From assembly GCA_964016885.1 (NCBI GenBank), contig CAXHJY010001657.1, forward strand, positions 1 to 63,275: DNA of 63,275 bases, given 5' to 3'. A model generated the notes under the pieces. The model did no database searches. It was given only the letters and a program-made list of their open reading frames with translations, and was not told the origin of the DNA. Both the position numbers and the translations under genes were made by a program. The stretch comes from Eledone cirrhosa. Its lineage: Eukaryota. Below are positions 30,323 through 32,667 of this stretch, in pieces. Every line of letters begins with the position of its first letter. Positions within the stretch are counted from its first letter, which is position 1.

Positions 30323-32667
30323 TTAGGTTATGCAAGAAATGCTTAGGATTATCCTGAATGCAGTAATGGTTAATTACTACACGAGATAGAGTTGACGTAC
30401 GGTGAAGGGTTACTCAACGAGTTATGAAAGAACAGTTAAAGAAACTCGGTTTCCGATTCTTCTGTATTCCGGAGTGTAGATAAAGAATGATTAATAAAAC
30501 AGGTAAACATCATAAAAAGGTAATTTATTCCGAGTGCTTACAAATGTTTCTTTAGTAGTTACACAGCCTAGTCATGCTATGTGCAAATTGGTAGTTATTT
30601 ATTTGCAGTTACTCGATTTTCAAATGCTGTTCATCCTACCAAGTCTCAGAGCGAATGGCTAAATTGTAAATTCCCTTGTATTTCTTAAAGGGAGTTATTA
30701 GGGAAGATAAAGTAGAAAAGGAAGAGAGAAAGATGGGGAGAGAGAGAGATATGTAGGGGTCGGGAAAATGGGAGAGAGTGGTTTGAAGAATACAGATAGC
30801 TTAATCTAGATATTGTTATAGGCGTCCAATAAGTGGTTTTATTATACTGCTTACTCTCAAAGTGACAACTTAGGCATTGTGTTGATATTGTCAAATTTGG
30901 AATTATTTATTGCCACAGAGAGCAGTTTAATAGATGTGGAGAAGGAGGGAGATAGACAGAGGGCGAGAGAGAGAAAGGGGGAGAGAGGGGACAAAACAGC
31001 TAAGTGAAGGGGAAGGAAAGGCGATATACACCGAGTTGGTAGTTGTAGTTTGCTGATGACACTTAAGTATCCATTTATTACGATAAGCAAGGTACTGGTT
31101 TGTAGTGTGGGGGAGGGGTATAGTTAGGAAGTAGTTATTGAGTGAAATTAGTTAGCGAGAAAGTGGTGTAGAAGTCTGGGGTTCAAATTATGTTAAGTTA
31201 CTTTTATAGTGAGAAAATTTAGCCTTCAGTTTGTGGTTGCAGTATAACGATCGTTCGATTCTGTCATTTAGTAAATTGTTTTTAGATTTCAAGATATAAA
31301 AAAGTTCAAGGTTGCATAATCTGCAGTACTTCAATCCACTCCTATATGCACTAGCGCTGGATAGTTTATCCCATTTTAGGGTGAATTGCCGGTTGTATTC
31401 ACGGAGTTGTCAGGTCTTATTAGCGAGTCTAGTTACATAACGGCGTTCAGGATATTTAATCGAAAATCGATGACGATACCAGCGTGATTTAAAGGAGGTA
31501 GTGGTAGACCCGACGTAATACTATTTCTGGTCGTTTGATTCGACAGTGCATTGATAAACAATGTTGGACTCCAGGCATTTATTCTTCAATAGGCATCTCT
31601 CGGGTAGGTGGCAATTGCAGGTTTGCTATGGGTAACAACAGTACCATGGATAGGTTGTGATAACAGTACAGGTGGGTTGTGTAATACCCGCCTCCCACTT
31701 GGTGGTTGGGAAGTTGATATTACGTTATGCCCATCTGTGTCTAAAATATTTTGTTTTTTAATGTTGTTTAATAATCGCTTTAAGTTAAGTTTTTTATGTA
31801 TGCTTCTAGGTTTGGTGCAGTGGAGTATGATAGCTTAACAGTCTTAGAGTTTAGAATTTTACTGTATTTATGGTAATTAGGGAAATGCTTGCTAATTAAC
31901 TTAAAGAATAAAAGAGATATTTCCGTATTAATCGAAGCATTAAAAATGGGATTATATCAGATATACTTCCTACAACGTAATTTATTTGAGTTTGGTGATG
32001 ATTTTCTATTATTAGTATGTCTGGTGGTGCTGCGTGTGTGTGTTTGTGTGCATGTACTCCGGTTACATATTCTTCGATTCTGTGTGTTGCTATGTGTGCT
32101 CTGGTGATTCTTATCAATGTATTCTATTTTATCCCGGTGGTCAGCATTCCCCAGTGCGTTATTATAGTATTCTGCATGTTCGCTGAAAATCTGAGAGTTA
32201 GGCGAGAGATTCTAAGAGAAATACTACGAGGAACCGATTTGATCATGGAAAGTGGGTAATTCGAGTTGTAATTAATATAGGTAAGGTTCTCGTTTATATT
32301 GTGGAAGGGTCGTATCAATCCTATGTTCAAATTAAGAGTTACGTCCAGAAAATTCACTTCTTTAAGATTTGGGTTACGTAAATTCCCACAAGATCCGTGA
32401 CGTCCGCTGAATCATTGAAGCCCATGGTGATGTCGAAGTTAGTGGGTCTATCCTTACGCTCCCAGTAGCAGTTATCAAACAATTTAGCCATTCGCTCTGA
32501 AGACTTTGTAGGATGAACAGAATTTGAAAATTGAGTATCTGCAAATAAATAACTACCAATTTGCACATAGCATGACTAGGCTGTGTAACTACTAAAGTAA
32601 CATTTGTAAACACTCGGAATAAATTACCTTTTTATGATGTCTACCTGTTCTATTAATCATTCTTTAT
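30323..32667 (-). mobile_element. 5'-truncated Penelope-like retroelement (Hydra-group-like) with inverted terminal repeat
   Basis: RT and GIY-YIG remnants on the minus strand. About 188-bp inverted repeats at 30480-30667 and 32479-32667 carry a split HHR core. TA runs at both ends. Confidence 0.85.
31188..32478 (-). pseudogene. PLE reverse transcriptase (C-terminal part and thumb) plus GIY-YIG endonuclease, disrupted
   Basis: Manual translation gives NFDITMGFNDSADVTDLVG, NFLDVTLNL..RPF..YINYNSNYP, YNPIFN..KHFP..TVKLSYS, CNCHLPERCLLKNKCLESNIVYQCTV..YYVGSTTTSFKSRWYRH and CRLCNLE..LLNDRIE..CNH. Contains stops, frameshifts and an apparent deletion of the catalytic DD region. Confidence 0.85.

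What the first reader, a model, noticed from the sequence alone, without database searches (positions are those of the whole stretch)
30323..32667. Hydra-group-like Penelope element links the palindromes to a coding retroelement
Seen: RT remnants, a CxCx5Cx5C motif before IVY..YVG (GIY-YIG), and a C-terminal CxLC..LLN.R.E..C.H. The ~188-bp inverted termini together reconstruct CGCT-CTGAAGA-CTTTGTAG-[long hairpin, 93-nt insert in total]-CTACTAAA-GAAAC-ATTT-GTA-AGC; the right arm keeps CTGAAGA and the left arm keeps GAAAC. From memory, the CxCx5Cx5C motif marks the Hydra group of PLEs. Inference: long-stem-II HHRs belong to this PLE lineage, and the short palindromes are its extreme truncations or non-autonomous partners.
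Basis: partly seen in the sequence, partly recalled or inferred. Interest (0 to 1): 0.75.

Follow-up and report, generated by a model that had tools for sequence, protein, structure and literature searches.

The report
Hydra-type Penelope element, long-armed hammerhead
This is a broken copy of a Penelope-like jumping gene of the Hydra group whose family carries a predicted self-cutting RNA motif with an unusually long arm; the short mirror repeats nearby are the ends of two sister families, and their regular layout suggests that both sides of one DNA cut copy an uncut RNA that likely starts just before the motif.

Summary
Confirmed in the main. 30323-32667 is a dead, 5'-truncated minus-strand Penelope-like element (family A; 157-bp deletion removes YRDD) with an inverted 5' pseudo-LTR, in (TA)n. 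The family ORF meets the published Hydra-clade markers (RWK, DKT, CxCX5C, no CCHH, CxxC/CxH), and 27 of 35 family copies keep a whole type I hammerhead core around a 93-nt insert, against 12-26 nt in published Hydra elements. Corrections: in family A the insert is not a stable long hairpin (z about 0), and the window's long-stem palindromes (15369-15896, 56687-57230) share no DNA similarity with this element. They are the 3' ends of two other coding Hydra-type families (B, C; C has intact 813-aa ORFs). In a positional sample of C, 30 of 30 head-to-head insertions pair one short with one long 3' end, 23 of 99 arms start 4-11 nt before the ribozyme core, and 1 of 100 copies starts at the cut site. 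This fits two-ended priming on uncleaved RNA with a fixed 5' end. No RNA data; no tree with named clades. The scan noted long stem II and two-armed insertions before on other DNA of this genome.

The parts
30300..30322 (.). Left (TA)n-rich target tract
   Evidence: sequence
30323..30476 (-). 154-bp tail between the long 3' end (+326 from the core C) and the short 3' end (+169 to +175); in a full-length copy it runs on into the ORF start
   Evidence: family copies end at 30323 or 30477 equivalents; L029 reads tail then start codon
30477..30667 (-). 3' pseudo-LTR, sense arm
   Evidence: 95% inverted match to 32479-32670
30536..30652 (-). Type I hammerhead of the left arm: CTGAGA (one base lost, 30649-30644), 93-nt insert, GAAAC-ATTT-GTA, stem I GCT/AGC; core broken in this copy
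30668..31187 (-). 3' untranslated region with TC-rich tracts
   Evidence: aligns to family copies
31188..31625 (-). Linker CxCx5Cx5C and GIY-YIG endonuclease with CxxC and CxH, no CCHH; in-frame stops at 31523 and 31412, natural stop at 31190
31626..32368 (-). RT motif 7, thumb and N/T-rich spacer; frameshifts at 32201, 31795, 31624
32369..32478 (-). RT motif 4 remnant; 5' truncation at 32478; 157-bp deletion at 32369 removes the YRDD motif
32479..32667 (+). Inverted 5' pseudo-LTR arm, joined head to head with 2 bp of microhomology; starts 16-18 nt before the core, ends at the short 3' end
32494..32611 (+). Hammerhead of the right arm: CTGAAGA intact, GAAA broken to GTAA
32665..32708 (.). Right (TA)n-rich target tract
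15369..15896 (.). Family B pseudo-LTR palindrome (centre about 15702; cores at 15693 minus and 15711 plus; 101-nt insert); long arm minus, short arm plus
56687..57230 (.). Family C pseudo-LTR palindrome (centre 57026/57027; cores at 57020 minus and 57033 plus; 116-nt insert); long arm minus, short arm plus

Best explanation
The stretch is a dead, truncated copy of a Hydra-clade Penelope-like retrotransposon family whose pseudo-LTR holds a predicted type I hammerhead with a 93-nt stem II insert, and it was likely made by the element's endonuclease cutting a TA tract and its reverse transcriptase priming both DNA ends on uncleaved element RNA at two fixed internal start sites, the two copies then likely being joined head to head. 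Shown: identity, breaks, two fixed 3' ends, one short and one long end per head-to-head insertion, pile-up of 5' ends just before the ribozyme core, near absence of ends at the cut site. Inferred: two-ended priming (about 0.8), and that the pile-up marks the 5' end of an RNA starting about 7 nt before the core, most likely a transcription start at an initiator-like YCATT (about 0.5). When both templates are that short RNA, or the copy stops there, the product is a 350-550-bp palindrome; when one template is a longer read-through RNA, the product is the element seen here. Untested: that the long-armed ribozymes cleave at all.
For: Family A: 2429 first-look candidates, 40 scored, 90-97% identity; consensus of 20 fetched copies plus the window gives an open frame of 745 aa with DKT, YRDD, CxCx5Cx5C, YYVG, CxxC, CxH, and RWK upstream of it. 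Colinear by eye with published Hydra ORFs. Model of sister ORF C: pLDDT 86, the 8 best Foldseek matches are telomerase RTs. B palindrome sequence is the 3' end of copies carrying Hydra-type ORF pieces; C has intact 813-aa ORFs in 5 of 16 fetched loci. C positional sample (first 100 of 1023 exact matches, 99 analysed): 30 of 30 head-to-head groups have one +199 and one +336 end; in 5 loci the partner arm begins at +196 to +298, inside the tail that the short-ended arm lacks, so it cannot be a fold-back copy of it (L253, L269, L279, L283, L290). 23 of 99 arms start at -11..-4 (14 at -7) against 7 between -12 and -480. 1 of the first 100 of 1149 matches starts at the cut site. Family A: 6 of 29 arms start at -15..-2. 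Two internal start sites, the tail, and independence from ribozyme cleavage were shown in vitro for a Poseidon element (PMC11167929).
Against: No RNA evidence was obtained for a start site or for cleavage. An untemplated G at -8, expected from a capped RNA, is inconclusive: 5 of 13 independent B junctions and no clear excess in C. The window's own short arm starts at -16 to -18, outside the -11..-4 peak. The tail here is 137-157 nt, against 30-40 nt in published elements. Palindromic junctions blur each arm's end by 2-4 nt, and some arms counted are the two halves of one insertion. In family A the ribozyme fold is weak (3-bp stem I, rival partner strand for stem II). No tree with named PLE clades could be built, and the sisterhood of A with B+C is unresolved.
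Confidence: 0.78

Rival explanations
1. The 5' pile-up is set by RNA decay, not transcription: a 5'-to-3' exonuclease would stall at the base of stem I of the folded, uncut hammerhead, leaving a pseudo-LTR fragment that still holds both priming sites.
For: The peak lies on the 5' strand of stem I (9-10 bp in B and C); ends scatter from -11 to -4; the pile-up is weaker in A, whose stem I is weak; cap-derived G is not clearly enriched.
Against: 14 of 23 ends are at one base, the A of YCATT, which lies at -7 in A, B and C alike; D. virilis Penelope has an internal promoter in the pseudo-LTR (PMC2377424, passages).
Confidence: 0.3
2. Palindromes arise by self-priming (fold-back) of one strand, as proposed for rotifer PLEs on an antisense template.
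For: Perfect zero-spacer junctions recur (L275, L313, L335 and the window's 57026); proposed in PMC3846280 (passages).
Against: 30 of 30 groups have unequal, fixed 3' ends; 5 partner arms hold only tail sequence absent from the other arm. The perfect junction is also what two copies ending at -7 give if they anneal by a terminal AT.
Confidence: 0.12
3. The short palindromes are a separate non-autonomous lineage (SINE- or retrozyme-like) that amplifies from its own masters.
For: They are numerous (13 of 30 head-to-head C insertions); non-coding tandem hammerhead units exist in this genome.
Against: In B, mean distances short-short 3.77%, short-long 3.76%, long-long 3.64%, with no fixed diagnostic substitution among 41 short and 29 long arms; junctions differ from copy to copy.
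Confidence: 0.12
4. The family A motif is a decayed ribozyme kept only by descent, with no cleavage.
For: z about 0, competing fold, 3-bp stem I, loop III not self-complementary; no consensus stem II from an unguided alignment of A, E and F copies.
Against: Core positions vary less than the insert among copies (0.021 against 0.047, though the 3' flank is 0.011); stem I pair -2 is T-A in 21 and C-G in 6 of 35 copies (C-A in 8); the core is kept in related families E and F while the insert diverged.
Confidence: 0.3

Closest known systems
Hydra clade of C-terminal EN+ Penelope-like elements (Craig et al. 2021, PMC8557442; read: passages, section 11, supplementary Files S1, S2 and parts of S4/S7), e.g. 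Penelope-13_HM, Hydra-1_Obim
   Same: RWK, DKT, CxCX5C linker, no CCHH, CxxC and CxH around E and N, (TA)n target, hammerhead near the 3' end with an extra base after CUGANGA, inverted 5'-truncated copy.
   Different: Stem II insert 79-116 nt against 12-26 nt in the 26 Hydra rows of File S2 (counted by eye); tail 137-157 nt; family C unit about 6 kb with a 3-kb 3' UTR against under 3 kb.
Poseidon element PAc of Anolis carolinensis (Frangieh et al. 2024, PMC11167929; read: parts 1-2 of 4 of the text)
   Same: Two internal RT start sites defining a tail, AT-rich target, both strands cut and extended, ribozyme cleavage not needed for insertion.
   Different: Other clade; its start sites are adjacent and inside the ORF, here 137-157 nt apart and upstream of the start codon; short hammerhead.
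Minimal hammerheads of metazoan PLEs (Cervera and de la Pena 2014, PMC4209133; read: part 1 of 4 and passages)
   Same: Type I, 2-bp stem III with self-complementary loop in B, C and E, pairs of motifs 100-700 bp apart on opposite strands, most motifs from truncated PLEs.
   Different: Helix II there is at most 7-8 bp in the passages read; here a hairpin of 30-40 bp in B and C.
Animal non-LTR retrozymes (bioRxiv 10.64898/2026.07.22.740005; read: part 1 of 5)
   Same: Non-coding hammerhead units related to PLE pseudo-LTRs.
   Different: The palindromes here are single head-to-head pairs, not tandem arrays, and do not form their own lineage.

Membership tests
Penelope-like elements (EN+) | Single ORF with telomerase-like RT and GIY-YIG endonuclease | tested here: met
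   Family A consensus ORF; Pfam GIY-YIG below cut-off; sister ORF C model matches TERT best
Penelope-like elements (EN+) | Pseudo-LTR, inverted 5' copy, optional tail | tested here: met
Penelope-like elements (EN+) | RT groups with PLEs in a tree with curated references | not testable with these tools
   No named PLE references could be loaded; the tree holds only A, B, C and 45 of 118 unnamed homologs
Hydra clade | RWK motif and DKG modified to DKT | tested here: met
   RRVRWK and ADKTS in A; RWR and SDKTG in B and C. Both lie outside the window copy
Hydra clade | CxCX5C linker | tested here: met
   31619-31593; also C
Hydra clade | No CCHH in the endonuclease; CxxC and CxH flanking E and N | tested here: met
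   CRLC..E and LLNDRIE....CNH; no CxxC after the linker and no HH pair at the usual place, read by eye
Hydra clade | Insertion into (TA)n | tested here: met
   Window flanks; family B and C ends run into TA
Hydra clade | Canonical (short stem II) hammerhead | tested here: not met
   Core present but insert 93 nt against 12-26 nt. Reported for the clade but shared with other PLEs, so read as a variant, not an exclusion
Type I hammerhead ribozyme | CUGANGA, GAAA, NUH and three stems | tested here: met
   Whole core in 27 of 35 A and 91 of 99 B copies; broken in both window arms
Type I hammerhead ribozyme | Self-cleavage | not testable with these tools
   Needs a bench assay; genomic copies almost never start at the cut site
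Non-LTR retrozyme | Tandem non-coding units each with a hammerhead | tested here: not met
   Element is coding; B and C palindromes are two arms
Neptune / Penelope-Poseidon / Naiad clades | CCHH motif in the endonuclease (and N-terminal EN in Naiad) | tested here: not met
   EN is C-terminal and lacks CCHH; a Neptune-like ORF from L071 (label by my reading of its motifs) matches A only at E=0.01-0.02

The most novel reading that the evidence does not exclude
In these Hydra-clade families the hammerhead no longer cuts out the transposition template: grown a 30-40-bp stem II arm, it marks the 5' end of a short pseudo-LTR RNA (start site or decay block at stem I), and the element's protein routinely primes both ends of one TA cut from two sites about 140 nt apart, so every head-to-head insertion carries one short and one long end. 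A very young family with intact ORFs makes this directly testable.
Probability: 0.4. Interest if true: 0.65.

Novelty: new variant of a known kind. Interest (0 to 1): 0.42.

Why it matters
How Penelope-like elements make their head-to-head inverted copies, and what their hammerheads do, are open questions (PMC3846280 and PMC8557442 passages; PMC11167929). The copy itself is ordinary and dead. Its relatives give a strict rule (30 of 30 insertions with one short and one long end), a sharp 5' boundary at stem I rather than the cut site, natural hammerheads with stem II inserts four to five times the published Hydra length that Rfam misses here, and a near-identical young family with intact ORFs on which each point can be tested.

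Tried and rejected
Rfam at gathering scores: 0 hits in the window. Pfam and PDB sequence searches with ORF C gave nothing useful; 118 homologs were found, all but one unnamed. RNA runs: no RNA holder listed, so no evidence on expression; three contig sets laid on the C pseudo-LTR show pieces of it but cannot show RNA ends. Cap-derived G: first suggested, whose query itself began with that G; in the positional sample 16 of 30 loci proved to be one propagated SINE-like insertion and were dropped, two more were one locus, leaving 5 G in 13; inconclusive. A splice acceptor at the boundary, as in D. virilis where the intron ends at helix I, was rejected for B and C (no AG there); A has an AG at -11/-10. 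First 5'-end tally for C stopped at subfamily variants and was replaced, where the 29 values at -485 to -503 are reference variants, not junctions. A pattern for the window's own pseudo-LTR variant gave 1 match. The 208-bp direct repeat flanking the element is 91% identical and is not taken as a target-site duplication. Searches for print on long stem II listed no paper describing it in PLEs; 'long stem II' and 'elongated stem II' had 0 occurrences in the 20 of 46 papers listed; subscription papers and bioRxiv supplements were not searchable, and supplements of PMC4209133 were not read.

Full report
Observation. The region 30323-32667 lies between TA tracts and reads on the minus strand as RT motif 4, RT motif 7 and thumb, a CNC-x5-C-x5-C linker, IVY...YVG, and CRLC...LLNDRIE....CNH. 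Pfam scores the GIY-YIG at E=6.6e-4, under its cut-off. Arms 30477-30667 and 32479-32670 are 95% inverted copies. The right arm keeps CTGAAGA and has GTAAC; the left has lost one core base and keeps GAAAC-ATTT-GTA; 93 nt lie between. Positions below are counted from the C of CUGANGA.

Family A. A DNA search of the own genome gave 2429 candidates, 40 scored, 90-97% identical. Twenty were fetched. They end at one of two places, equal to 30323 and 30477. Their consensus with the window copy has an open frame of 745 aa with DKT, YRDD and the endonuclease motifs; L029 shows the start, with RRVRWK, just downstream of the tail. Against it the window copy is cut at 32478, lacks 157 bp at 32369 including YRDD, has three frameshifts and two stops in the endonuclease. 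Craig et al. 2021 (PMC8557442, section 11) define Hydra by RWK, DKT, CxCX5C, no CCHH, CxxC and CxH around E and N, and (TA)n targets; all are met, and published Hydra ORFs run colinear by eye. A tree with named clades was not possible; among 45 of 118 unnamed homologs A, B and C fall in one 8-row clade with A's position open.

The hammerhead. Of 35 distinct A copies spanning it, 27 keep the whole core. The insert folds no better than shuffles (z about 0); the ribozyme fold has a 3-bp stem I, a 7-8-bp stem II base with a branched cap, and is 3 kcal/mol above a rival in which the same strand pairs elsewhere. So 'long hairpin' is wrong for A. Published Hydra motifs have 12-26 nt here (26 rows of File S2, counted by eye), two non-Hydra PLE-X motifs about 50 nt. 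A relaxed scan of the window and 247 loci (1.1 Mb, overlapping) found families with inserts from 11 to 116 nt.

The palindromes. The two long-insert palindromes of the window have no blastn hit to this element. The one at 15369-15896 (B) is the 3' end of copies carrying Hydra-type RT and EN pieces: 19 of 20 loci fetched with a B endonuclease-end query have such ORF hits and 18 of 20 carry the palindrome's pseudo-LTR start. The one at 56687-57230 (C) belongs to a family of near-identical copies; 5 of 16 fetched loci hold an 813-aa ORF between pseudo-LTRs, 42% identical to A, whose model (pLDDT 86) matches telomerase RTs best. B and C inserts are true long hairpins (z -3.7 and -6.8, stem I 9-10 bp); of 42 consensus pairs 4 show a two-sided change, a weak covariation signal. 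Family E (79 nt) also has a Hydra-type endonuclease upstream in L380, and its insert aligns with A's. A 96-nt family lies in 1-kb tandem units without such an ORF. Family A makes its own short palindromes elsewhere.

How the copies end. For C, the first 100 of 1023 exact matches by position were taken, 99 analysed. Thirty groups are head to head and all 30 pair a +199 end with a +336 end; 13 are pseudo-LTR-only palindromes; 31 groups show one anchored arm or a direct pair. In five loci the partner arm starts inside the tail that the short-ended arm lacks, which fold-back cannot give. 5' ends: 23 arms at -11..-4 (14 at -7), 13 at +1..+81, 7 at -12..-480, 56 run further upstream. Anchored just after the cut site, 1 of the first 100 of 1149 matches begins there (the pattern excludes a C at its first place). 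In A, 6 of 29 arms start at -15..-2; the window's arm starts at -16 to -18. Short and body-linked B arms are equally distant from each other.

Mechanism. Two internal start sites, cutting and extension of both strands, and no need for ribozyme cleavage were shown for a Poseidon element (PMC11167929). I infer that each nicked strand primes at its own site and the two copies meet head to head; the window element is one long-ended, randomly truncated arm plus one short-ended arm. I infer an RNA 5' end near -7, where A, B and C all have the A of YCATT (initiator consensus recalled, not from a call); a decay block at stem I is the main rival, and the cap-G test was inconclusive. Pairs of opposite-strand hammerheads from truncated PLEs were already noted (PMC4209133), and self-priming was the earlier proposal for such junctions (PMC3846280).

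Verdict. A real, dead member of a known clade with a variant ribozyme motif. The two-ended reading was in my notes before I saw the scan's earlier notes, which report long stem II and two-armed insertions on other DNA of this genome; they are not counted as support.

Noticed in passing
L142, L144-L147, L153, L154 and others (G000 C1); also loose end in run X5: A family B subfamily carries one SINE-like insert of about 200 bp exactly at position -7, with -7..+10 duplicated, leaving an intact hammerhead downstream; 16 of 30 loci in the positional sample.
   Followed up: partly
L204, L206, L209, L211, L215: Family C looks very recently active: copies about 99.5% identical, intact 813-aa ORF, 3-kb 3' UTR, 1023 exact matches of a 36-mer.
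   Followed up: yes
window 1-123, 10567-10720, 10868-10911: Short palindromes of other families also turn just before a CTGA core, with short stem II (11-13 nt inserts).
   Followed up: no
L356-L367 (G000 C13, about 23.78-23.80 Mb): Tandem array of ~1000-bp non-coding units, each with a 96-nt-insert hammerhead; retrozyme-like.
   Followed up: partly
window 30082-30290 and 32720-32929: A 208-bp direct repeat (91%) flanks the element; its minus strand reads C.C...QT..H.L.CP, recalled as the C-terminal zinc finger of a LINE ORF.
   Followed up: partly
family A hammerhead, window 32504-32596: The stem II 5' strand has two possible partners about 30 nt apart, and A carries 16 nt more than related families E and F just before GAAA, suggesting stepwise lengthening or a switch.
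   Followed up: partly
window 55488-58537: The family C palindrome sits at the centre of about 3 kb of TA-rich microsatellite that is itself palindromic.
   Followed up: no
window 16568-17616: Tandem array of a 55-bp unit at about 98% identity.
   Followed up: no
window about 16116, minus strand: Another type I hammerhead with a roughly 27-nt insert, from a family seen in 27 scan hits.
   Followed up: no
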